Origin: Felis catus
Lineage: Eukaryota
Direction of reading: 5' to 3'
Assembly: GCF_018350175.1 (NCBI RefSeq)
Contig: NC_058368.1
Coordinates: 19,470,001 to 19,534,000 of the forward strand
Length of the DNA: 64,000 nucleotides
The notes under the pieces were generated by a model. It did no database searches and was not told the DNA's origin. It saw only the letters and a program-made list of their open reading frames with translations. The position numbers and the translations under genes are program-made. Every line of letters begins with the position of its first letter. Position 1 is the first letter of the stretch. Positions 23,126 through 61,350 of this stretch are shown here, one piece after another.

Positions 23126-23256
23126 TACATACTGTTATGTCCTGCGGGGTCTCAAATGAAAAAAGTTTACTTGGCAGACTGGGAGAGGAGAATTAGACCT
23201 GATGTGAACTTCTAGAGTATTATTATTTTATCAAGAGAACCCAAATGTACATCTCA

Positions 23257-24264
<1,008 letters not shown>

Positions 24265-25028
24265 TTAAAATCGAGCAGAAAAGTTGGAGATAATTATTTT
24301 GTCACAATCATAAAGAAGGTTATTTCTATATTGAAAAAAAAAATGTTTTCCACTGTTTTTCCTTCATTGCACTTGGTCTGCTGATCCCGAGTCCTCTGCT
24401 GTCCTGGGAGTTAAATGTTAGTCCTCCAAATGAGACTTCGAGTTCTTTGCTATTTCCTCTTCTGAGAGTTTTGCATAGAGCAGACATCAATAGAATTTGC
24501 TGACATTTCCGCTTTTATGAAATACACAGAAACTTTATTCTGACAGCCTTTTCAGTATAAAACGGTAATATCAATAATGTACTCTTAAACAAGAGTTAAA
24601 ACTTACTAAATGTATCTTTAGACAGGATCATAGATGCTAAAGCGTTACTCTATTTTTATCTGAGAAATGCAATAAGATTCTAAAAGCTAGATCAGGTGCC
24701 TGCATCAAAATTAGATAGGATATAATAATAATGGAAGTCTTTAAAAGTATATATTCTTATGACTATGCTTTTGGCATTTGCTCTGATGGTGTTTTTGGCT
24801 ACTGAGTCATAAAACATTTCTTAAGTATCTAGTATGAGCTACTAGGTTCAGGGATTAGAGGGTCTTTACCCTCGAGGAGCTGAGTTCAGTGGGGAAAACA
24901 GATGTATAAACAGAAAACTGCAAAACTGTGATATGTGTTGATAAAGACAGCCATGGGATGCTGTGCAGACCCAAAGGATGAGCATCTAACTGCACTTCCC
25001 CACAGGCAAAATGATCCTTAGACTGAGG

Positions 25029-25259
25029 TTTTTTTTTTTTTTTTTTTAACGTTTATTTATTTTTGAGAGACCGAGAGAGAGGGAGAGAGCTTGCACACAT
25101 GAGCAGGGAGAGGGGCAGAGAGACAGAGAGAATCGCAAGCAGGCTCCGCACTGTCAGTGCAGAGCCCGAAGCGGGGCTCAAACTCAAGAACCGTGAGATT
25201 ATGACCTGAACTGAGATTAAGGGTCAGATGCTTAACCCACTGAGCCACTCAGGTGCCCC
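25029..25259 (-). mobile_element. CanSINE
   Basis: T-tail, (GA)n, SINEC head reverse-complemented. Confidence 0.9.
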
Positions 25260-25299
25260 TGGAATGATCCTTATAAGACGTAAAAACGATTGTCATCTC

Positions 25300-25822
25300 C
25301 GATTGCTTAAAGATGGCCACAAATTCTTTGACACTTATCAAGTGGTGGGATCTATGTCCCTTCCCCTGGAATGACGGGCTCTGTGATTGCTTTTACCAAT
25401 AGACTATGTCAAAGGTGACATTTTGCCAGTTTCTAGAGCCAAGTTCTATGGGGATGGTAATTTCTGCTTTGCTCTAGAGAAGTCAACTGTCACATAAGAC
25501 GTCCAACTATCCTGAGACTGCCATGTTGTGTGCAAGCCCAAGCGAGTCACGTAGAGAGGCTGCGGGTGACAGAGATGCCTGACCAGTGTTCCCCACCCTC
25601 ACCCACTGTCACTGTTGCAATCATCCCAGCCCAGGAAGCAGGTATGTTAGTGGAGAAGCATTCAGATGACTTGGAGCCAGCTGCCATCTAACTGCAGCAG
25701 CTTGGTATGCAGGATTTCAAACAGGGCCCATCAATCCCCAAACTGTGAAATATAATGAGAAATTCTTGCTTTAGCCATTACGTTTTGGGGTGGCTTGTCA
25801 TGTAGCAACGGATAAGCAGAAT
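25300..25822 (+). mobile_element. MaLR LTR (MLT1F/G-like)
   Basis: 'aaagatggccacaaattctttgacact' start and 'ttttggggtggcttgtcatgtagcaacggataagcagaata' end. Confidence 0.7.
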
Positions 25823-26332
25823 ATCATCTCTCTGTCTGAAACACTCATATAGTTTCCCACAGCACTTAGAATACCAGCTAGACTCCTCACTCTACTCACT
25901 CAAGCCCTGAGTAATCTGGACCCTGCCTCCGCTCTCTCAGGTACCCACAGGGTCAGCCAAACTGGATTCCTTTCTCTGAACACGACAGGCTCCTTCCAGT
26001 CTTAGGGGACTTGCAAGAGTTGTTCCCTCCGTTTTGAACTCTCTTTTCTCATCTTCACTGTGTTTTCCTGAGGCAGACGGTATGGCATGTGATTTACAAC
26101 ATGGGCTCTGTAATGCAGTTCCCTTATCTGTCAAATGAGGGTAACAGTAACAATCTCATAAGGTTACTCTGAAGATTGGGTGAGCTGACACGTGTAAAAC
26201 ACTTCAAACAATGCCTGGCACATAGTAAATGCTCAGTACACGTCAGCTGCTTTTGTCATTTAAACTTCAGTGAAGTATCACCTCCTTGGAGATTTTCCCT
26301 ACTTACTCAGTCTAAAATACGGAATCATTCCC

Positions 26333-26520
26333 GGGGCACCTGAGTGGCTCTGCCGGTTAGGCATCTGACTCTTGATTTCGGCTCAGATCATGATCTCATG
26401 GTCATGAGATCAAGCCCCAAGCTCTGCTCAGTGCAGAGCCTGCTTGGAATTCTCTTTCTCCCTCTCTCTGCCCCTTTCCCGTTCTCTCTCTCTCAAAATA
26501 AGTAAGCATTAAAAAAATAA
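26333..26520 (+). mobile_element. CanSINE
   Basis: ggggcacctgagtggctc head, CT tract, A-tail. Confidence 0.88.
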
Positions 26521-27888
26521 AGTATGGAGTCCTATTTTAATTTCTTGCGTAGCATCTCTCACCATTTGGTATTTTTCTTTTTAGGTATTATTTTGTCTCC
26601 TCTCCATTAAAATCTAAGATCCATGATCTATTTTGTTCACCATTCAATCTCAACTCAACAGTGACTGACACAGAGTAGGTCCCCAAGAAATATTTCTAGA
26701 TCGAATGAAAAGTGTATTGTAGTTTATGCTGAGTCAGGAGAGGCTTGTAGAAATTAGCTGAGGAGAAAAAGGTCAGAAAAAAAAAAAAGGAACACCGTAT
26801 GGAAAGGCAAGGAATCTATAGAGAGAGCCTGATGCTCCTAGCTCAGTGTGCTGAGCAAAGTATACATGAAGGAATGGGGAGGGATGAAAAATAAAATGTG
26901 GCAAGAACAAGATGAAAAAGTATCTTCTATGTCCTACTGAGGATTTGGACTTCTTTCACTGCAGGTGACTTGGGAATAACAGAGTTTGCTGGGGAGTACA
27001 GTAGAGCTATCACAAAACTTTACCGCTGCCCTCAAGAGTGAGAGAATCCAGGTAGACAAGTTAATGCACAGAGTTAGGAGAAGGAAAGAGCAGTAGTGAT
27101 TAGAGAAGGAGCAGGGAAGGCCTCAGAAAGGTGGGCAGTACGCTGAGATCTAAGAACACGTTTTAGATCCAGGGAGTTATGGAAGATGGCAGAGGAAATA
27201 CAAGGGTGGTGGCTGGAAGCCAGGATGAGCCAAGAAACAGAGATGTAGAATGAAGGGAATTCTGTGTGAAGGCTCTGGAACTGGATGAAGGGCATGTGCC
27301 AGGAAGTAGCGTAACCAGGGAAGAATAATAGTTTCCTCCTATGATAAAACCACAAATGGAATTTGTACTTTACTGTGTTTATTCCTCCTACATTTGGAGA
27401 TGCAGGTGGGGAGAAGGAAGCCTAAAACATGAAATGACCGGGTAGTAGCATATTCTTTCGAACATGGTAACTTAAGACTAACTGGTAATGATATCAACAT
27501 TAAAATCAGATAGATGCTCTCACAGAGATTATCTCCTGTGTGCCGCTATGGACTAAATGTATTCAGGCTTAAAGTGTTCCTTGGTATTGCTTGATATATT
27601 TCTGTTTACTATTCAACTTCTCCACACGTTCTTCCAAGGTGACAGTTATCCCCGCTAAATTTTGCCATTAAAGGGTGGATACTTTCCCTTTCCATTTCTT
27701 TGTCATATCAACTAAAATTCAACAGGATCTTGTAAGGCAGGCTGGCACATAACAGAAGCGTTTCCTTATTGAAGAACAATTAATTCCTGGCCACGAGTAA
27801 GGTGAGAGAAAGTTAACTTTCTGGGCAATGATTTTTTTTTTTTAAAGGTAATACGAGAGCAAATGAGCTAAGAAAGATGCATACCTAC

Positions 27889-28119
27889 TTTTTCTGCAGA
27901 GCCCTTAAGGCACACCACAAAACTCTTTCTCCTCCGCCGCCAGCATTGCAGTACGGATGAAAAAATGCAATCACCAGTTGATTTTTCCCATTTTTGCTAG
28001 TTGCTACTGACTCTTTCTTTCTTCGTACCAGCAGTCTGATTCCCCAGAGGATAATGAACAAACATATGCATAAAATTCCACATACTGTCAGGCCAGGGAG
28101 GAATAATGAATAAAAAAAC
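27889..28119 (-). CDS. ALG11: ALG11 exon 2 (membrane anchor and [18 protein letters not shown] motif)
   Basis: Acceptor TTTCAG|G TTT TTT TAT; donor AAA AA|GTAGGT; 231 nt. Encodes [76 protein letters not shown]. Confidence 0.97.
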
Positions 28120-28318
28120 CTGAAACAAGAAGGAAAATATAAAAATCAACAGAAACAACAAATTAAAGTCCACTTTTACATATCCACTTTATATATCAGT
28201 AGTAAAGAGAGATTTTTATACCTGGGAGTCTGCTAACGAAATACTTCTTAATCAGCAGTAAAAATCAATGTTGAGCCACTTTTCTCCTAACAGTGTATGT
28301 GTTAAGGGACTAAAAACA

Positions 28319-28559
28319 GGGGCGCCTGGGTGGCTCAGTCGGTTAAACGGGTGGCTCAGTCGGTTAAGCGGCCGGCTCAGCTCAGGTCATGATCTCGCGG
28401 TCTGTGAGTTCGAGCCCCGCGTCGGGCTCTGTGCTGACAGCTCAGAGCCTGGAGCCTGTTTCAGATTCTGTGTCTCCCTCTCTCTGACCCTCCCCTGTTC
28501 ATGCTCTGTCTCTCCCTGTCTCAAAAATAAATGTTAAAAAAAAAAATTTAAAAAAAAAA
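28319..28559 (+). mobile_element. SINEC_Fc with tandemly duplicated 5' A-box segment
   Basis: gggtggctcagtcggttaa occurs twice (28328-28346, 28349-28367); TSD ggactaaaaaca. Confidence 0.92.
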
Positions 28560-31302: not shown

Positions 31303-32008
31303 TCAAGGTTAATTCTTAACAAAATTAATTTTTACTGTTTCATCAAGGACATTCTTAGTAAAACTGGCTTTAGCAAGTGCACGGTGGTGAAAAACACAAG
31401 ACTTCTCATATACTTTGATTTCATTGCCTCAATTTGTAGTAAGTAGCAGTTTTATCCACTATTACTTTTGCACCATTGGTGCAAATGTAAACATAATGAG
31501 AAAGCAAATGTTAGCATAAATTATTATAAAAATAGTTTTGATCTTGAAGAACTATTAAAAGAGTCTTGAGGACCTGTCAAGGTCTATGGACCATGCTTTG
31601 AGAACTACTGACTTAAAGGATGAACAGGGTTTGACATAAGTGGTAAGATTTGTCAATTATTTAATGTTTGGAATATATCTGTTCATAAAAAGAATATTAT
31701 ACAGCTTTCCCAGGAAAAGTTAAAAGCCCATTTAATTTAAAATGAGGCTGATCCATAGAATCCAAGGATTTTTATGGCATTTCCTTCTAATGACTTAAGT
31801 GGGAAGATTCATGTGATAGGATTTTCAAACTGAACTATTTAACTTAAAATCAGAAAAAATAAATCCTACTAATAACTAAAGTTGAGCCAGTCCTTTATTG
31901 AGTCTCTTAGTTTCAAAGATACAGACTATATAAATTTATTAAACATCCTACAGTACTTGCACATCAAAACTATCCATTTTAGAATTTGTTTAAATCTAAC
32001 TAAAAATA

Positions 32009-32200
32009 GGGGCGCCTGGTGGCTCAGTCCAGTTAAGCATCCAAATTTTGGCTCAGGTCATGATCTCACAGTTTGTGGGTTCAAGCCCTGCATTGGGCTC
32101 TGTGCTGACAACTCAGAGCCTGGAGCCTGCTTCAGATTCTGTGCTTCCCTCGCTCTCTGCCCTTCCCCAACTCGTGCTCTCTCTCACTCTCAAAAATAAA
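32009..32200 (+). mobile_element. CanSINE
   Basis: SINEC head and body. Confidence 0.88.
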
Positions 32201-32470
32201 CATTCAACTATACAGTATATACATACACACACACACGTATATAAACTAAAAATATGTGCCATTAAATAATGTTTACCACAGAAACCCAAGGCTTTAAAAG
32301 ATAACTAATCAACAGTGACTCATTCATTCGACAAACATTTATTTAGCCATTGTGATGCGCAAAGCACTGAGTCAGGGATATTTCAAATGTCGGGGAAGAA
32401 TATGAAGCCTCTGAAAATAGACTTTCCTGTTCAAAATGTTTTAAATAATCATTATAGAAATTGGAGTAGA

Positions 32471-32700
32471 GGGGCGCCTGGGTGGCGCAGTCGGTTAAGC
32501 GTCCGACTTCAGCCAGGTCACGATCTCGCGGTCCGGGAGTTCGAGCCCCGCGTCGGGCTCTGGGCTGATGGCTCGGAGCCTGGAGCCTGTTTCCGATTCT
32601 GTGTCTCCCTCTCTCTCTGCCCCTCCCCCGTTCATGCTCTGTCTCTCGCTGTCCCAAAAATAAATAAACGTTGAAAAAAAAAATATTAAAAAAAAAAAAA
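32471..32700 (+). mobile_element. Young SINEC_Fc
   Basis: Near-consensus ggggcgcctgggtggcgcagtcggttaagcgtccgacttcagccaggtcacg...; long A-tail. Confidence 0.95.
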
Positions 32701-33599: not shown

Positions 33600-34042
33600 T
33601 ATGTAAGTGACATATGTTAACAGCGACCATTTTGGTGAGTGAAAGAGGGGAAACTAAGACGTGACAAGAGCCAGTTTATTCTTTACCAAGAAGAGACACG
33701 ACAGTTTGGAAAATGATCCATGGCTCAATTATAAAGGAAAACGAGAAATGAATATGGATAATTTATAACAGAATAGTTGGAGTGCGAACAAAAAAGAAAA
33801 AGGAAGGGAAACTGCACCCTTCAGCCAGAAGTGGGGCAGGCGAAGAAAACGCGGTTAACTGAGTCTTTAACCCAGTCAGCTTCAGTCTAATTAAAAGACT
33901 CCGAAGTGAGAACAGCGCTATCCTTGAGGCCTAGATTCGTGACTAGAAGATCCCCCTTCCCCGCAAACTTCAGTTGCCCTGGGCGGACAAGAACCACCGC
34001 GAAACAGAAAACGCCTGCGAGCCCACACCACCAGCTCCTCAC

Positions 34043-34086
34043 CTCAGTAACTCGCACAAGCACCAACCCACTTTGGTGGTCGCCAT
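34043..34086 (-). CDS. ALG11: ALG11 exon 1 coding part
   Basis: AAG ATG GCG Kozak context; encodes MATTKVGWCLCELL(R); donor AG|GTGAG; 44 nt. The four exons total 1479 nt = 492 aa + stop. Confidence 0.95.
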
Positions 34087-35071
34087 CTTCCCTCGACCCC
34101 CGAACTCAGGAAGCGCTTCGCTGTTCCTCTTCTCTATTGGCTCCAGAGGAAGCGGGCGGTGTTCTCTCCGCCCCCATGGGGCAGATTTCGCGTTTCAATT
34201 GGCTGCTGGTAGTAGCTTCCCACGGCCTTCCAGTCAATAGAATCTCCCGGGGAGGAGACAAGTTTTCGGCGTGGCGCACAAGGGTCCCGCCCCCCCAGCG
34301 GGCGGGGCCGTAGTGGGAGTAGGGCTGGAGAGGGCGTGGCCTGTGATAGACAGCCGGGCACCCGCCCTCGGCCCCCTCCCCCACTGGAAGCCCCCAGCCC
34401 GGGGCCCGCCGGCCGTTGAGACCAATGGGAGGCCCTTGCGCATCTAGGATCGATTTCCCAGGTGCGGAGTTCACTCCCGCGGCAGCTGCGGCATTTGGGA
34501 CCCGCGACGCCCCGGAGCGAAGCGCGGAGCTGAGAGGCAGCTGTGCGGAGCGGACCCGAAGAAGGTGCCCGCCACGCCGCACCTCTCCGCCGGCGGTTGG
34601 CGAGCCCTGGGATCTGCATCTCCGGCTCGGCTCTGCGCCGCTCGCCCGCCCTCTTGTCCTTCACACGCCGGGGGCCTAAGACCGAGTCCGCAGCGTACCG
34701 GCCCGAGGTAGCGGAGACTTGGGAGGGAGGACCGGTCCCCGCCAGGGGCACGGGCAGGGCCGCCTCCGGGTGTGAATGAGGGTCCGAGGCCAACCCTCCG
34801 CCCTTGAGCTTATCCCCGCCCCCCCCCACCCCCCCAAGGGCCAGGGCGCCAGGGCGCGCGACTTTGAATTAGCCGGTGGGGCGAGGGCTGCTGATCCCCT
34901 GGTCTGAAATGCAGGAGACCTTTTCCAGACCCTTCCCCGGGTGAGAGAGCCGAACCGCAGAGATGCCACCCACAGCCCGCTCCCGGGGTTTTAACACCGC
35001 ACTTCTCCACTAACCAGGTGACCTGTGGGCTCTGGGCGGATCACAGAAGAAATTGGTTCCTCCGGAGGAGG

Positions 35072-35122
35072 ATGCTTGAGCAGGAGAGGCAGCTTACTGC
35101 TAGAGTAGGGGCCGGTTGGAAA
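35072..35122 (+). CDS. ATP7B: ATP7B canonical first coding exon (copper-transporting P1B-type ATPase, Wilson disease protein); exon 2 onward lies outside the window
   Basis: Encodes MLEQERQLTARVGAGWK, then consensus donor AAA|GTAAGT (51 nt, phase 0). Compare human MPEQERQITAREGASRK; head-to-head with ALG11 as known. Confidence 0.93.
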
Positions 35123-35695
35123 GTAAGTTTCCCTACCCGAGCGCCGCGTGCTCACACCTACCTGGAGGACTTTCCACGCCCACCTGCCTGCCTTTCTCTG
35201 CGGCCGGCCTGGCTTGCTCGAGGAAGGCAGGGGGCTAGAGCCCTAGCTCCAGGAGAGCAACCTTAGAAATGCTATGCCTTTCACGGGTTTGCAGGAACAA
35301 TTTAAAACCCGGCACTTTCCCACTCCTCTTTATGCCTGACGCTGGATTTGTAAAGTGAGCGTTGAGTTGCTGTGTAAGAGCCCTAATTGCCCAGGACGAG
35401 TAAATTAGTTACCCAGCGAAGTTATGAAGAGTGCGCTGGTCTCTTTTTATCCAGGTCCTGCAACTTTTTTTTTAAAGAACTGTTTTGAATTCATTTTAAT
35501 TATACAAGTAACGCATTAATGTGGTGACTTAAAAATGGAAACAGCACAGAAATATTGAGCATGAAAAGCAGATCTGCTTCCTAATCCTTTTCTGTACATT
35601 TACATATGTCATCCTTTGTTCTGCAAACATTTATTGAACACTTACTGCATGTTTCAGGCATGGTACTGAAGAGCTGAAAATACAGTGGTTAAAAA

Positions 35696-54266: not shown

Positions 54267-54535
54267 CTCCAGCCTCCTTTTTCTAGCTGTGTTCTGGGTC
54301 TGAGTGGCCATTTAGGAGAGGTAAAAATATTTTACAGTAAAGCATTTATATTTTCCATAGGTCATGGAACAGGATAGACTCTTCAAAAGCACTTGGGGTG
54401 TATGATGCCAACTACTTTCATTATTAACTATTCATATCTATAACACAGAACTAGTATTTATATTTAGAATGATCCCATATCACCAAGGAAAATTTGAAAT
54501 ATGGTTAGTAACTCAGCTTTTAAAAAGACAGCAGA

Positions 54536-54753
54536 GGGGCGCCTGGGTGGCGCAGTCGGTTAAGAGTCCGACTTCAGCCAGGTCACGATCTCGCGGTCCG
54601 GGAGTTCGAGCCCCGCATCAGGCTCTGGGCTGATGGCTCGGAGCCTGGAGCCTGTTTCCGATTCTGTGTCTCCCTCTCTCTCTGCCCCTCCCCCGTTCAA
54701 GCTCTGTCTCTCTCTGTCCCAAAAATAAATAAACGTTGGAAAAAAAAAAAAAA
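54536..54753 (+). mobile_element. Young SINEC_Fc
   Basis: Near-consensus sequence; TSD aaaaagacagcaga. Confidence 0.95.
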
Positions 54754-54831
54754 GACAGCAGAAATACACGGCATCTTTGGGGGAGGATTTCTACCCAAAA
54801 TGACAAAAATTTTTAAAATATCTGGTGCTTA

Positions 54832-55057
54832 GGGGCACACTTGGGTGGCTTAGTGGGTTATGTGTCCTACTCTTGATTTCGGCTCAAATCCTGATGTCAT
54901 AGTACGTGGGATCAAGCTCAGAGGTAGGTTCTGTGCTGGCAGCACGGAGCTTGCTTGGGATTCTCTCTCCTCTCCCTGCCCTTCTCCCCACTCACCTGTG
55001 CTGTCTAGCGCTCTCTCTCTCTCTCTCTCTCAAAATAAATAAACATTAAAAAAAAAA
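54832..55057 (+). mobile_element. CanSINE
   Basis: SINEC body, (CT)n, A-tail; TSD about atctggtg(c/t)tta. Confidence 0.88.
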
Positions 55058-55968: not shown

Positions 55969-55990
55969 GGGGGGGGGGGGGGGGGGGGGG
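55969..55990 (+). repeat. G22 homopolymer
   Basis: 22 consecutive G. Confidence 0.9.
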
Positions 55991-56220
55991 TAGCTGGAGA
56001 AGCCTGAATTGTGGGTTCGTTCCTGGCTGTCCTCCCCCGTACAAAAAAGGATAACAAGGATGAGCCTTTGTTATCCAGTGCGTTTTTGCAGTCAGTTCTT
56101 ACTGAAGCCAAGCCAAGTTGGTCCAAGGGAAAACAAAGCTGCAGGAAACATGGACCTTTCTTACACCTTCTTGAAAATGCAAGTCATGTTGCCTAGGAAA
56201 TACTCTGTCCCCTAGCGTGC

Positions 56221-56561
56221 TGCACACCGCCAGCATTGGAGCTATGGAAGAGGCCGCTGAAGTTATTCCAAGAAAGCGTTGGAAGTTTGGTAATGAAAGG
56301 AAGTGTCATCTCTCCCCTGCCTCGAGGCTGGGTTTCTGGGAGTGCACACGGCCAAAAGGAAACTGTGCTCAGCTTTGGGAGGTGACTGTGTGCCGGGCTC
56401 CTGCACACGCTGGCCGGGTGTCCTGGCACGGCTGGGTGAGGGCACGCGTGGGGCCGTGTGCAGAGATTCCCAGGGCCGAAAGCAGTGTGGTGAGTGAGAG
56501 GGTGCCAATTGGTTGGAAGGATGTAGGTAAACAAGAGTAAATATACATACAGCAGTGTGCA
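56221..56561. promoter_or_regulatory. Cluster of metal response elements (MTF1 sites) with FOXA and CCAAT motifs; putative internal ATP7B promoter
   Basis: TGCRCNC cores at 56221 (+), 56340-56346 (-), 56343 (+, TGCACACGGCCA), 56402 (+), 56456-56462 (-, within perfect TGCACACGGCCC at 56451-56462) and 56555-56561 (-). CCAATTGG at 56505; GTAAACA at 56527; GTAAATA at 56537. Confidence 0.75.
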
Positions 56562-56783
56562 GCCTGCCCAAGTTCAGAAGCTGGCTGCTAGACTTGGCCG
56601 GCAGCCTCTCCCCCGCTGGCTCCAGAGCAGAGGGGAATCTGCAGGACTGACGGATCACAGGTGCCTCCCCCTGCTAGTTAGGAGGACACTTTTAAAGCTT
56701 TTCCTTCTCACTCGACCAGGTAGTCTGGTGAGGGTGAACAGCTTGCTTGAATGGTGGGTAAAGGTGTGACCGCGGACACAGCG

Positions 56784-56999
56784 ATGGAGAAAGCCGGGGG
56801 TGACATGCCCGGGAGCCCTGAGCCGTCCTTCCTGGCGACTCTGGGTGACCCACAGGTGACCCTCGTGTCCGTCCACAAGCGGTGGTCCTTCAGGAGGAAT
56901 CCTGGGACCGGGGGCTCCACCAGGCCAGTGACTTCGGAGGAGGAAGGAGAGTTTTCCCAGAAGGTTTTGAATGGAACACGGGGAATCCGTTCCAATCAG
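56784..56999 (+). CDS. ATP7B: ATP7B alternative first coding exon (72-aa N-terminus; possible upstream in-frame ATG at 56751)
   Basis: Strong Kozak gcgATGG; open 72 codons [72 protein letters not shown]; donor CAG|GTCAGT in phase 0 like canonical exon 1; in-frame TGA at 56748. Resembles the recalled long N-terminal isoform of sheep ATP7B. Confidence 0.8.
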
Positions 57000-58769
57000 G
57001 TCAGTGCAATTGCAGAAGGGCTAAAAAGCCGAGAGGGAGTTGGACGGGCTTTCAGATGGAGGTTCCTCCCTTGTCTTACGAATGGGGGATCAGGGAAGCG
57101 CGGCCGGGGTGGGGAGCCAGAGTTGAGGTGATTCTCCAGACTTTATCCAGAGATAAAGTCCATCATGGTAACCGTTGGGTTTCTCGCTTGTTTTTAGGAT
57201 ATTTTGTAAGCCTCTGTGGGGCAAAAGTTTTCCGGAAGGCAGATCAGACAAAAATGGAGTTTTGCCCTGTTTTTGCTTTTTAAAACGTGTACCTTATTTT
57301 GTTAATCTCCGTATTTCGACTAAATAAACATTTTGAATGTGTTGCTGCAAAACGAAGCTGTTCTTCTTAAGCAAATGAACATTTTGTTAACCCAGAGGTC
57401 AGGTCATGTTCAAAAGTAGGGCAGTGTAACGTTTTATAAGAGCCTTGTAGTAACATTTCCGGGTGGGACTGGTGGTTTGTGTGGGGTCTTTTTCATTGAT
57501 CAGGGCAGATGAAAAAATACCAGTTAGCAACAAAGGAAAGTTTTTGAAGTCCTTTGACCCTTTAAGAGTTATGTTTGTTTCTCCTGGGTTTTATTGTTTA
57601 AAAAGTCCCCACATTTGCTAAAGGAAATTTTGTGAAAAGAGATTTTTGAAATGTACTATGCAAGAGATTTACATCTGTTGAAGGAAATTTCTGAATGCCC
57701 TTATGCAGTGCACGGTTAACTTTATATTTTTAGCTGAGTGTCTAAGACAGAAATATTAGATTGGGGTGGGAAGGCTTAACATTGCTTTAAAATGTTCAGA
57801 ATACTACTTCACAAAATCCAGCCTATGTCTGAGATATTTGAATGTGAAATATCCTAATTTTTAAATGGCCATTACTAATCTCATGTAACTAGGGGAGCAA
57901 CCTGAACCTGGCTGGGGGAGCCTGTCTGAAAGGAGGACCCAAGTAGAGGCCCACGTCGAGGCTGTGGTCCTGGGGATCTGGTGCAGATCTGGGCTCTGCC
58001 GTTGTGGGTCTGGGGGACCTGGCAGGTGAGGCTCGGGCTCCTCCAGCTCCAAATGCCCCACTGCAAAGTGGAAGTAATAAATGCCACCTCACGGGATTGT
58101 GAAAGCACTTTGTGGAGTACTACGGAAATGCAAAATGGTATCGTTTCTGCCAAAATTATGATTTTCAGTAGAATTCCCAACTCAAGATGTGTTTGGTGCC
58201 CTCTGAATGTCTGGTAGAACTGTGTCAGCCAGTTAATCTGTCGGAGCACAGTTCTAGCTATTTTTTTCTAGAGCTCTGATTACACACGTAACATGTGCTC
58301 ATTATACAAGACAAATTTTGGATGAGGCAGGGGGAATAGAGAAAAGTATTAGGAAGAAAATGTAAGCAACCGTATGCCTTAGCCATATATGTGTACATGT
58401 ATCTATTTATTTATTTACAAACAGAGGATCAGGCCATGCATAGTATTACATACCTTACATTTTTTACTTAATATTTTGTGGACATACACCGACACACACA
58501 TGATGTATATTCATCTATATTTATATACACATCTGTATCATCAGGTTTAATTGCAGTCCTGCTTTTAAATTTGGGATTACTTTTAGAAAGAATCTAACTA
58601 TTCTCAAATGGGGGAAATTTGTAGTAGCTGGTTTAAGATGAGAAGAACCAAGCTAAAAGTCATTTGTAATTGAGTATTTGTTCATTGTCAACAGTGTATT
58701 TACTCAAAGTCTATTATAATCAAACTTTGGATCTACTTGAGAGTTAACTTGTTTAGTACTTAGTATGTC

Positions 58770-59430: not shown

Positions 59431-61124
59431 ATATTGTTATTAATTTTTTAAAAGGTTTATCAACGATTTGCACTTCTTTTTCTGAGGATTATATTTCGTA
59501 GCAAGTTCCTATTGTGCATTACAGAGTAGCATACATTATAAATATGCATCCACACCTTAAGTCTTTCAAAGGAATATACTTGTTTCATGTTTAGCTGATC
59601 ATACCTATAATTCTAGGCATAAACTTACATTTGTTAGCCATTCTAGAATACAATTTTGTGTGATGAAATGCTAACTAGATTATTTCACCACATGTGACAA
59701 TCACATGGAATTTATCGATAATGATGATAATAATAATAATAAGCAAAAATAATCCCAAGTTCATTGACTTCGGTCATATAATTATCTGAGTTCATAGTGT
59801 TGCTGTGGCATTTCTTCTAACCAGTGGTACTGTCGCATATATTTAATGTAGGTCTTTTACATCCTGATCTTGTAATTCTGGCAAACGACCTAAGGGAGTT
59901 ATGACCTTATGATTCTGGCTTAGACCGTTTCATTCAAATATTAAAAAATATTCCAAGATACTGACAGTTGCTTGGTAGTGACAGGCTCGTTATGTAAAAT
60001 TTCTTTGACGGGAAGGGCTTGCAATGTAGTGTTCTCAGAGAAGCTGAAAAAATGCTTTTGATTTGGTAAAAGTCTGGTGGGATATTTGTTAGGATAGATG
60101 TAAGTTAAAAGCAATGAAATTCTCTGAAACTGTTCATAGTAAAGCTGTTTGGAATGAGATTGCAAACAAGCTCTCTGAGGTAATAATCGTGAAGTGCTTC
60201 TTGGAGAGGTCTTATCGTTTGTGAATTTCTAAATTTTATTTTGTTGTGTGTAGAAAACAGCATGCATCGTATGTATATATCGAGACCGGTTTATTTTATT
60301 TAACTTAATGCACTTTTTCTCCCAAGAAAATGGATGTACTGCACCCAGTTTCTCAGTAAGAGTTGATATTTTTCCTTGCTGTGGTCAAGAGAAGGAAATA
60401 GGCAATACATTTGTCCAGAATTTCCCGGGAACAACATAGTCAACCCCACAGCTGGGGTGGCCCTCGAGGGCAGAGATCCAAGTGTCACACACAGACAGCC
60501 CAGGTATGTAGTCGGCCCTCATCAGTGTTTGAATTAGTGCCTGAGTTTTGGTTGGTTCGTTTTTTCAGTAAATAAAGTTGAAATAATAGTTGGTGGAAGC
60601 TCTTTCTGGACGCTTGTAAGACATCCTGGAGGGACAGTTTGAAGGGGTTGGAGTGGGGGCTGGGGGATTATGTATACTAGTTTTAATCATTAGTTTTCCT
60701 TATCAGTTAAATGGTGGAAATAGTAAGTTCCCTGCCTACCTCCTTGGGCCACTTTTGAAGACCAAATGAGCCATGTGTGTTGTCATAGTCCCTGTCACAC
60801 ATTTATTATGTTAGCCTTTTAAATCTTTTTAGCTTTCCGGCCTTCCTGCAAAATTGTAGGGTGGGTATTTTTACTACCCCACTTTACATGGAGCTAAGAA
60901 AACGGAGTTTCGGGTTTGCTCAGACGTGGCTGGAATTCATACCTAAGACTGTCAAATGTACCCTCAGTAAATTCCCAGCAAGTAGGAAGGACAGATATTT
61001 ACCCAAATATGTGAAAGTGTGTTATAGAGTATGAGACCATGTATATCACTGGTGCATCATTGTTGTCATCTATATCACAGTGATTAATAATGTTTACATC
61101 GTGTGGTTTAACAAGACATATTCT

Positions 61125-61350
61125 GGGGCGCCTGGGTGGTTCAGTCGGTTGAGTGTGGGACTCTTGATTTCAGCTCAGGTCATGATCCCTGGGTCATGGG
61201 ATCAAGTCCTGATTCTGGGTCCATGCTGGGCGTGGAGCCTGATTACGATTCATTCTCTCTGTCTCTCTGTCTCTCTCTCTCTCTCTCCCCCTCCCCCCAT
61301 CTGTCCCTCTTCCCCGCTCACATGCTTTCTCTCTCCCTTGCTCTAAAAAC
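61125..61350 (+). mobile_element. CanSINE
   Basis: ggggcgcctgggtggttcagtcgg head, (CT)n; TSD about caagacat(a/t)ttct. Confidence 0.88.

What the first reader, a model, noticed from the sequence alone, without database searches (positions are those of the whole stretch)
56221..56561. Metallothionein-style array of six metal response elements deep in ATP7B intron 1: candidate metal-inducible internal promoter
Seen in the sequence: six TGCRCNC cores in 341 bp, at 56221 (+), an overlapping palindromic pair GAGTGCACAC at 56340-56349, 56402 (+), 56456-56462 (-) and 56555-56561 (-). One is a perfect 12-bp MRE consensus TGCACACGGCCC (rc of 56451-56462) and one is 11/12 (TGCACACGGCCA at 56343). At uniform base composition the core occurs about once per kb over both strands, so about 0.35 would be expected here. 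The array lies 223-563 nt upstream of an intact alternative ATP7B start codon, in a repeat-free GC/CpG-enriched island about 21 kb downstream of the canonical promoter. Established: clustered MREs are bound by MTF1 and drive Zn/Cu/Cd induction of metallothioneins; ATP7B is the hepatic copper exporter. Inference: the gene has two promoters, a housekeeping bidirectional CpG promoter and a separate MTF1-driven promoter that makes a different N-terminal isoform under metal load.
Basis: partly seen in the sequence, partly recalled or inferred. Interest (0 to 1): 0.88.

Follow-up and report, generated by a model that had tools for sequence, protein, structure and literature searches.

The report
Metal-response motif cluster before alternative ATP7B exon
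A dense cluster of metal-response DNA motifs sits just upstream of an already-annotated alternative first exon of the copper pump gene ATP7B in a cat-family genome; it may be a metal-sensing switch, but its use and its conservation in other mammals are not shown.

Summary
Six TGCRCNC cores lie at the stated coordinates; two fit the 12-nt MRE consensus at 12/12 and 11/12. No dinucleotide shuffle of the window reached 5 in 341 nt (0 of 500). Density equals true metallothionein promoters of the same genome.

The setting is right but not new. The window holds ALG11 and ATP7B head to head. The start codon downstream of the array opens an alternative first coding exon (56751/56784-56999). That exon is the N-terminus of annotated ATP7B isoforms in many mammals. 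MTF1 control of the canonical human ATP7B promoter is already in print.

The functional claim is untested. An indirect codon-level test on four orthologous stretches found the cores no better kept than background 7-mers (14 of 21 against 11.2 expected, P=0.15). The 11/12 site is lost in three of four relatives. The array is not a classical CpG island.

Verdict: a plausible, possibly felid-specific, MTF1 module at a known alternative promoter. Moderate interest.

The parts
56221..56232 (+). MRE1: core TGCACAC, 12-mer TGCACACCGCCA (10/12)
56340..56354 (.). MRE2: overlapping palindromic pair. Minus-strand core at 56340-56346 (TGCACTC, 7/12). Plus-strand core at 56343-56349 with 12-mer TGCACACGGCCA (11/12).
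   Evidence: Left arm of the 11-nt perfect inverted repeat I3.
56402..56413 (+). MRE3: core TGCACAC, 12-mer TGCACACGCTGG (8/12)
56451..56462 (-). MRE4: perfect 12/12 consensus TGCACACGGCCC (core 56456-56462)
   Evidence: Right arm of inverted repeat I3, 98 nt from MRE2.
56550..56561 (-). MRE5: core TGCACAC at 56555-56561, 12-mer TGCACACTGCTG (9/12)
56505..56512 (.). CCAATTGG palindrome (a CCAAT box on both strands), inside the best-kept block between the array and the exon. No TATAWAW or GGGCGG box lies in 56100-56800.
   Evidence: Residues ERxPIGWK are invariant in three orthologous translations but changed in the most distant one, P0056.
56751..56999 (+). Alternative first coding exon of ATP7B. 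ATG at 56751 (the felid annotation, MVGKGVT...) and at 56784 (MEKAGG...). Ends in phase 0 before gtcagt at 57000. The 5' end of the exon is unknown.
35073..35123 (+). Coding part of canonical ATP7B exon 1 (17 codons, MLEQERQLTARVGAGWK, donor gtaagt). Its identity rests on my recalled human N-terminus and on the locus context.
   Evidence: It lies in a true CpG island at 34000-35000 (GC 0.68, observed/expected 0.77).
23254..28145 (-). ALG11 exons (23254-24264 and 27885-28145), the head-to-head neighbour of ATP7B
   Evidence: PF15924, E=6.9e-74 and 1.8e-13

Best explanation
The 341-nt stretch is the proximal 5' flank of the alternative first coding exon of ATP7B. That exon replaces the 17 canonical N-terminal residues with 72-83 others.

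I think the two consensus-grade sites are the working parts. They are 56343-56354 and 56451-56462, an inverted pair 98 nt apart. Most likely they bind the zinc-finger factor MTF1. The three or four weaker cores would act as helpers or be bystanders. Bound MTF1 would raise basal transcription from this second promoter and perhaps give it a modest metal response, as MREs do at metallothionein genes and at the canonical human ATP7B promoter.

Shown here:
- the motif cluster and its excess over chance;
- its metallothionein-like density;
- the identity of the exon and its use in annotated proteins.

Inferred:
- the exon has its own transcription start between about 56560 and 56715 (my estimate 0.75);
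- MTF1 occupies the array in vivo (about 0.45);
- this changes isoform output under metal load (about 0.2-0.25).

The sites are poorly kept outside felids. Any such function is therefore probably young or lineage-restricted.
For: - Cluster statistics: 0 of 500 window shuffles reach 5 cores per 341 nt, and local shuffles give P(>=6)=0.0002. The only two sites scoring 11 or more of 12 in 64 kb are both here.
- Positive control in the same genome: the metallothionein cluster has promoter arrays of 7 cores in 249 nt, 9 in 497 and 11 in 591, with at most 8 per 341 nt. The array here has 6 in 341.
- The exon is real. All 47 hits (of 124 candidates scored) align to the 72-residue peptide. Of these, 36 are named copper-transporting ATPase 2, 4 are full-length 'hypothetical' proteins with the same Pfam domains, and 7 are unnamed short or partial ORFs. 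They come from carnivores, ruminants, camel, whale, bats, a mole, a pangolin and a kangaroo rat.
- The exon cannot sensibly be an internal exon after canonical exon 1, because a stop follows three codons after the acceptor-like site (sequence). The seal isoform P0021 is collinear with 56715-57002.
- Two runs on record as RNA hold 0.93 and 0.90 of the sampled words of 56560-56999.
- Prior from print: MTF1 binds an MRE in the human ATP7B promoter, and a promoter variant that disrupts the site is linked to Wilson disease (passages in PMC11503025). [quoted passage not shown]
Against: - Conservation is no better than background. I tested whether the residues of four orthologous open frames could still encode each core. 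The cores were compatible in 4 of 5 evaluable sites (P0052), 5 of 5 (P0054), 3 of 6 (P0053) and 2 of 5 (P0056). That is 14 of 21 against 11.16 expected from all other 7-mers, P(>=14)=0.15.
- The 11/12 site is incompatible in P0052, P0053 and P0056. The perfect site is incompatible in P0056 and has a changed flank in P0053. For the two best sites, 4 of 8 are compatible against 4.26 expected.
- P0052 and P0054 resemble each other closely, so they are not independent.
- One of twenty arbitrary 10-kb genome pieces also has 6 cores within 341 nt, though in simple GT/GC sequence.
- No TATA or Sp1 box is present, and the region is not a classical CpG island.
- No transcription start, binding or induction data could be obtained.
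- From general knowledge (recalled): mammalian ATP7B is controlled mainly by copper-dependent trafficking, and strong metal induction of its mRNA is not the usual finding.
Confidence: 0.42

Rival explanations
1. The cluster is a neutral accident. The region is the alternative promoter or 5' flank, but the TGCACAC cores arose by drift in GC-rich unique sequence and are not used by MTF1 in any way that matters.
For: The cores are kept no better than background 7-mers in four orthologous stretches (14 of 21 against 11.16 expected). The best sites are lost through changes at their CpG (CGG to TGG, ACG to ATG), as unconstrained CpGs are. A six-core cluster turned up once in only 200 kb of arbitrary genome. 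Five of the six cores are the same heptamer TGCACAC, unlike the mixed cores of the metallothionein promoters.
Against: 0 of 500 shuffles reach even 5 cores. Two sites scoring 11 or more of 12 lie within 120 nt, whereas 200 kb of arbitrary genome holds four sites at 11 and none at 12. The one comparable cluster in the random sample lies in simple sequence, and this array does not. The gene is a published MTF1 target at its other promoter. Turnover of binding sites does not exclude function in felids.
Confidence: 0.35
2. The array is transcribed or intronic rather than upstream of a start, and works as a downstream MRE block. MTF1 bound here would slow or pause polymerase. That could hold back canonical-promoter transcripts crossing intron 1, or exon transcripts that start further upstream, for instance near the conserved block at 56130-56190. 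The result would be metal-dependent repression or a promoter switch, as described for Zip10.
For: MTF1 bound to an MRE 17 bp downstream of the Zip10 start represses by blocking Pol II. A zebrafish 'intronic MRE cluster' represses zip10 (abstract and discussion passages of PMC3124522). The transcription start here is unknown. A well-kept non-coding block lies upstream of the array. A GGTGAGT at 56489 and an acceptor-like site at 56719 would allow a small 5'-UTR intron (sequence).
Against: No read evidence exists either way. RNA-labelled runs hold 0.90-0.93 of the words of 56560-56999, which argues against clean splicing out of 56490-56719, though weakly and without laying. The same lack of conservation applies.
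Confidence: 0.12
3. The array is a distal intronic enhancer for the canonical bidirectional ALG11/ATP7B promoter. In this genome it would supply the MTF1 input that MREs give inside the human canonical promoter.
For: The 1.3 kb upstream of the canonical ATG (33773-35072) holds only one TGCRCNC core, at 33813. [quoted passage not shown]
Against: The array is 21.7 kb from that promoter but only 190 nt from the alternative start codon. No contact or activity data exist.
Confidence: 0.08

Closest known systems
Metallothionein (MT1/MT2) promoter MRE arrays bound by MTF1
   Same: Several TGCRCNC cores on both strands within a few hundred nt, some with the GC-rich flank. The density equals the MT promoters of the same genome (6 per 341 nt here; 7 per 249, 9 per 497 and 11 per 591 there).
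   Different: MT arrays mix core variants and hold many sites scoring 11 or more of 12: 14 in 60 kb, four of them perfect. Here five of six cores are TGCACAC and only two sites are strong. The distance to a transcription start is unknown, there is no TATA box, and metal induction is untested.
Canonical human ATP7B promoter MREs (MREa, c, d, e; MTF1 at MREe; Ku at MREa)
   Same: Same gene, same motif class, same proposed factor. The link between MTF1 and ATP7B expression is already published. I saw passages in PMC11503025 and PMC8471362, and the reference list of PMC8027023. The primary papers (Oh 1999 and 2002, Chen 2018, Stalke 2020) were not read.
   Different: Those sites lie within about 1.3 kb upstream of the canonical ATG. 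This array lies 21.7 kb downstream, in intron 1, before a different first exon. In this genome the canonical 1.3 kb has only one core.
Alternative N-terminal form of sheep ATP7B (Lockhart and Mercer 2000, 2001)
   Same: Ruminant ATP7B proteins begin with the orthologous peptide (66-72% identity). [quoted passage not shown]
   Different: I could not read the Lockhart papers. That they describe exactly this exon is my recollection, not a result. Nothing I saw mentions MREs at that exon.
Zip10 (Slc39a10) MREs downstream of the start, and the zebrafish zip10 intronic MRE cluster
   Same: An MRE cluster inside a metal-transporter gene rather than in its main upstream promoter. It shows that the position relative to the start decides activation or repression (PMC3124522 abstract and discussion passages).
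   Different: There MTF1 represses an importer. Here the gene is an exporter, and the position relative to the start is unknown. Zheng 2008 was not readable.
PINA, the pineal night-specific ATP7B product from an internal alternative promoter
   Same: A precedent that ATP7B carries a second, internal promoter with its own regulatory logic (passage in PMC11491124).
   Different: PINA starts far downstream, lacks the metal-binding N-terminus and is under clock control. The isoform here keeps all metal-binding domains and only swaps the first exon.

Membership tests
MTF1-dependent MRE array (metallothionein type) | Several TGCRCNC cores clustered within a few hundred nt, beyond chance | tested here: met
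   6 cores (5 places) in 341 nt. 0 of 500 window shuffles reach 5; local shuffles give P(>=6)=0.0002.
MTF1-dependent MRE array (metallothionein type) | Density comparable with true MT promoters of the same genome | tested here: met
   MT cluster arrays have 7 per 249, 9 per 497 and 11 per 591 nt, with at most 8 per 341.
MTF1-dependent MRE array (metallothionein type) | At least some cores carry the GC-rich 3' flank (TGCRCNCGGCCC) | tested here: met
   12/12 at 56451-56462 and 11/12 at 56343-56354; the rest score 7-10.
MTF1-dependent MRE array (metallothionein type) | Array lies within about 300 nt upstream of a transcription start | not testable with these tools
Only the start codons are known, 190 and 223 nt downstream.
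MTF1-dependent MRE array (metallothionein type) | MTF1 occupancy, and induction by Zn, Cd or Cu | not testable with these tools
   No ChIP or expression data were within reach.
MTF1-dependent MRE array (metallothionein type) | Cores conserved in orthologous sequence above background | tested here: not met
   Indirect codon-compatibility test on four orthologous open frames: 14 of 21 against 11.16 expected, P=0.15. Two best sites: 4 of 8 against 4.26. Power is low, no nucleotide alignment was available, and the species are unknown.
Alternative first exon / second promoter of ATP7B | Exon supplies the N-terminus and joins exon 2 in frame in annotated proteins | tested here: met
   All 47 hits align to the peptide, and the full-length ones continue ...IRSNQ|ILSK.. 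into the HMA domains.
Alternative first exon / second promoter of ATP7B | Exon is not simply an internal exon after canonical exon 1 | tested here: inconclusive
   Joining at 56719/56720 gives a stop after three codons (sequence). Seal isoform P0021 is collinear across that site. No read-level junction data exist.
CpG-island promoter | GC >=0.5 and CpG observed/expected >=0.6 over >=200 nt | tested here: not met
   The array has GC 0.56 and observed/expected 0.52. No qualifying 200-nt window starts between 54600 and 56650. The canonical promoter qualifies in 19 of 39 windows.

The most novel reading that the evidence does not exclude
In cats, and perhaps other Laurasiatherian mammals, ATP7B has a second, MTF1-driven, metal-inducible promoter in intron 1. 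It makes an N-terminally extended copper exporter on demand. This would be a transcriptional feedback loop for copper or zinc load that human and mouse lack, and it would bear on species differences in copper-storage liver disease. The MREs would be a recent, lineage-specific gain.
Probability: 0.2. Interest if true: 0.7.

Novelty: new member of a known kind. Interest (0 to 1): 0.35.

Why it matters
ATP7B is the Wilson-disease copper exporter. Cats, dogs and sheep show copper-associated liver disease or marked copper sensitivity. In felids all 14 felid proteins that one search returned start at this alternative exon, so its promoter may drive much of the gene's expression in these animals. If the MRE pair is used, non-coding variants here would become candidates in feline copper hepatopathy. 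ATP7B would also gain a metal-sensing transcriptional input separate from its canonical promoter. If the pair is not used, the case is a useful warning. A motif cluster can be as dense as a metallothionein promoter, sit beside a metal-transport gene, and still be unconstrained.

Tried and rejected
- **Read-level evidence.** The look-up of sequencing runs listed 24 runs.
- **Orthologous DNA.**
  - The search for related loci with an alignment of 12 N-terminal peptides found 78 pattern matches in metagenome contigs, none confirmed.
  - In genome contigs it found 94 pattern matches, with one 24-residue chance hit on an archaeal contig (L002), which I dismissed.
  - No other mammalian genome is held, so I used translated open frames from unnamed assemblies instead.
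  - The search with the minus-strand frame gave only a near-identical felid ORF (P0055). The representative search gave that ORF plus P0056.
- **Earlier findings.** Three look-ups all came back empty.
- **Wider genome background.** The empirical background therefore rests on 200 kb only.
- **Core-promoter motifs.** No TATAWAW, TATAAA, GGGCGG, CRE, AP1 or ARE match lies in 56100-56800.
- **Repeat origin.** Rejected. There are no tandem repeats, the region is single-copy in the genome, and the only internal repeats are the MREs themselves.
- **Peptide family.** Pfam found no family for the exon peptide.
- **Papers.** PMC6244090 (Chen 2018) and PMC2494845 (Zheng 2008) are not held. PMC4728329 holds none of my five terms about isoforms. 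I found no paper that places MREs at this exon. For these I saw the listings, and passages only where cited elsewhere in this report.

Full report
**1. The observation**

A pattern search finds 32 TGCRCNC cores in the 64-kb window. Six fall at 56221(+), 56340(-), 56343(+), 56402(+), 56456(-) and 56555(-), exactly as reported. Two of them overlap as a palindrome, so there are five separate places.

Scores against the 12-nt consensus TGCRCNCGGCCC are 10, 7, 11, 8, 12 and 9. The perfect site is the reverse complement of 56451-56462. The 11/12 site is at 56343-56354. Together they form an 11-nt perfect inverted repeat with 98 nt between the arms.

**2. More than chance?**

- In 500 dinucleotide-preserving shuffles of the window, the largest cluster per 341 nt was 4. 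None of the 500 reached 5.
- In 5000 local shuffles of the GC-rich block 56001-57000, P(>=6) was 0.0002 and P(>=5) was 0.0006.
- Outside the array the window has 0.41 cores per kb and never more than 2 per 341 nt.
- In twenty arbitrary 10-kb pieces of the same genome the rate was 0.57 per kb. Nineteen pieces had at most 3 per 341 nt. One (L038) had 6 within 147 nt, but inside GT/GC-rich simple sequence.
- The array itself has no tandem repeat and is single-copy in the genome.
- Sites scoring 11 or more of 12 number two in the window, both here. The 200-kb sample holds four at 11 and none at 12. The 60-kb metallothionein locus holds fourteen, four of them perfect.

The cluster is real and unusual. 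It shows that six-core clusters are not vanishingly rare genome-wide.

**3. Positive control**

The metallothionein gene cluster of the same genome was found with Pfam PF00131 and fetched. It carries promoter arrays of 7 cores in 249 nt, 9 in 497, and 11 in 591 (twice). The maximum is 8 per 341 nt. 'Metallothionein-style' is therefore a fair description of the density. The MT arrays mix core variants, whereas five of the six cores here are TGCACAC.

**4. What the locus is**

- A true CpG island at 34000-35000 has GC 0.68 and CpG observed/expected 0.77.
- It precedes an ATG at 35073 followed by 17 codons and a gtaagt donor. I recognise this as the canonical ATP7B exon 1 from my recollection of the human N-terminus.
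- ALG11 exons lie on the opposite strand at 23254-24264 and 27885-28145 (PF15924).
- The array lies 21.7 kb downstream of the canonical start, in intron 1.

The 72-residue frame 56784-56999 was searched among longer proteins. 47 of 124 candidates scored E<=0.01, and all 47 align to the peptide.

- 36 are named copper-transporting ATPase 2.
- 4 are full-length 'hypothetical' proteins with the same Pfam domains.
- 7 are unnamed short or partial ORFs.

Identities run as follows:

| Group | Identity to the peptide |
|---|---|
| Felids | 94-99% |
| Bears, seals, mustelids | 86-90% |
| Ruminants, camel, whale, bats | 65-73% |
| Dog | 69% |
| Mole | 62% |
| Pangolin | 62% over 85% of the peptide |
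| Kangaroo rat | 57% |

The full-length proteins run ...IRSNQ|ILSK... into exon 2 and the metal-binding domains. Felid isoforms start eleven codons earlier (MVGKGVT...), which maps to an ATG at 56751, directly after a TGA. The peptide has no Pfam family.

The alternative start codon is therefore real, but it belongs to an exon that public annotation already uses widely. A passage in PMC1766353 mentions different sheep isoforms of the Wilson protein. That Lockhart and Mercer (2000) described this very exon is my recollection only.

**5. Is there a second promoter?**

The only acceptor-like site before the exon is ttttccttctcactcgaccag|g at 56719/56720. Joined there, canonical exon 1 would read GTA GTC TGG TGA and stop (sequence). 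An annotated seal isoform (P0021) is collinear with 56715-57002, across that site.

These points favour a first exon with its own start somewhere upstream of about 56715.

Between the array and the exon there is a CCAATTGG palindrome (56505-56512). It lies in the best-kept block of three orthologous translations. There is no TATA or Sp1 box, and the region is not a classical CpG island.

**6. Conservation**

No other mammalian genome is held, and scans of metagenome and prokaryote contigs gave nothing useful. I therefore searched with the accidental open frames that cross the array.

Four non-identical relatives came back from unnamed assemblies: P0052, P0053, P0054 and P0056. A near-identical felid ORF, P0055, also appeared. 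After frame-aware alignment, I asked for each core whether any codons for the relative's residues could still spell the core. The same test was applied to every other 7-mer as a control.

| Relative | Cores compatible / evaluable | Background 7-mers compatible |
|---|---|---|
| P0052 | 4 of 5 | 0.61 |
| P0054 | 5 of 5 | 0.66 |
| P0053 | 3 of 6 | 0.51 |
| P0056 | 2 of 5 | 0.35 |
| Total | 14 of 21 | 11.16 expected, P(>=14)=0.15 |

The 11/12 site is lost in P0052 (CTR to CTW), P0053 (CMW) and P0056 (RCA). The perfect site is lost in P0056 (LHT to LHM), and its flank is changed in P0053. The W and M substitutions at these two sites (CGG to TGG, ACG to ATG) are changes at the CpG inside TGCACACGG.

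For the two best sites, 4 of 8 were compatible against 4.26 expected. MRE5 in P0052 and P0054 fell below my local-identity threshold. By eye the residues there are unchanged.

The test is indirect, lenient and low-powered. P0052 and P0054 are close to each other, and the species are unknown. Even so, it gives no sign of constraint on the cores.

**7. Reading**

The most likely account (about 0.4) is that the array is the proximal flank of the alternative ATP7B promoter, and that the inverted pair of strong MREs binds MTF1. This would add basal drive or a modest metal response, probably as a young felid feature. Almost as likely (0.35), the cluster is unconstrained and unused.

Two smaller possibilities remain. 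One is a Zip10-like downstream MRE brake (PMC3124522 abstract and discussion passages). The other is a distal enhancer that compensates for the near absence of cores in this genome's canonical promoter. That promoter has one core in 1.3 kb. [quoted passage not shown]

**8. Comparison with what is known**

MTF1 acting on ATP7B through promoter MREs is published for the human canonical promoter. I saw passages in PMC11503025 and the reference list of PMC8027023. I did not read the primary papers. An internal alternative promoter in ATP7B also has a precedent in PINA (passage in PMC11491124).

I found no paper that places MREs before this alternative exon. The searches were made, for which I saw listings plus the cited passages. 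The finding is therefore a new member of a known kind, not a new kind.

**9. Verdict**

Its central functional claim is untested, and the conservation evidence leans against it. Interest is moderate (0.35).

Noticed in passing
window 33773-35072: The 1.3 kb upstream of the canonical ATP7B start codon holds only one TGCRCNC core, at 33813. The CpG island itself holds none. [quoted passage not shown]
   Followed up: partly
window 56343-56353 and 56452-56462: The two strongest MREs form an 11-nt perfect inverted repeat with 98 nt between the arms, each flanked on its outer side by GAG. The stretch is single-copy in the genome, so it is not a repeated mobile element.
   Followed up: partly
window 56130-56190: A non-coding block just upstream of the array is the best-kept part of the region in the orthologous translations (local identity 0.78-0.96). 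Its role is unknown. It could be a further promoter or enhancer element, or part of an upstream exon.
   Followed up: no
window 56489 and 56719: A GGTGAGT donor-like site and a pyrimidine-rich acceptor-like site 230 nt apart could bound a small 5'-UTR intron. No read evidence could be obtained.
   Followed up: no
window 56784-56999: The alternative N-terminal peptide has a strongly kept core ([12 protein letters not shown][LV]SVHKRWSFR[RK]) across carnivores, ungulates, bats, a mole and a rodent. It matches no Pfam family. No primate or murid protein appeared among the 47 hits, though absence from this word-based search is weak evidence.
   Followed up: partly
window 55969-55990: An uninterrupted run of 22 G lies about 230 nt upstream of the array.
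   Followed up: no
window 28262-28537, 31876-32199, 32309-32674, 54524-54832, 61035-61346: Open frames with the same recurring text (GAPGW.SRLS...GHDLAV.EFEP..GL.AD.SEPGACFRFCVSLSL) recur through both introns. They look like copies of a carnivore SINE (recalled, not tested).
   Followed up: no
L038 2199-2345 (G000:C39:58002199-58002345): An arbitrary genome piece holds six MRE cores within 147 nt, inside GT/GC-rich simple sequence with CpG observed/expected 0.96. This shows that degenerate (GT)n/(GCGT)n tracts can mimic MRE arrays.
   Followed up: partly
L002 3001-3072: A 24-residue, 58%-identical match of the exon peptide on an archaeal metagenome-assembled contig. I judged it a chance hit.
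   Followed up: no
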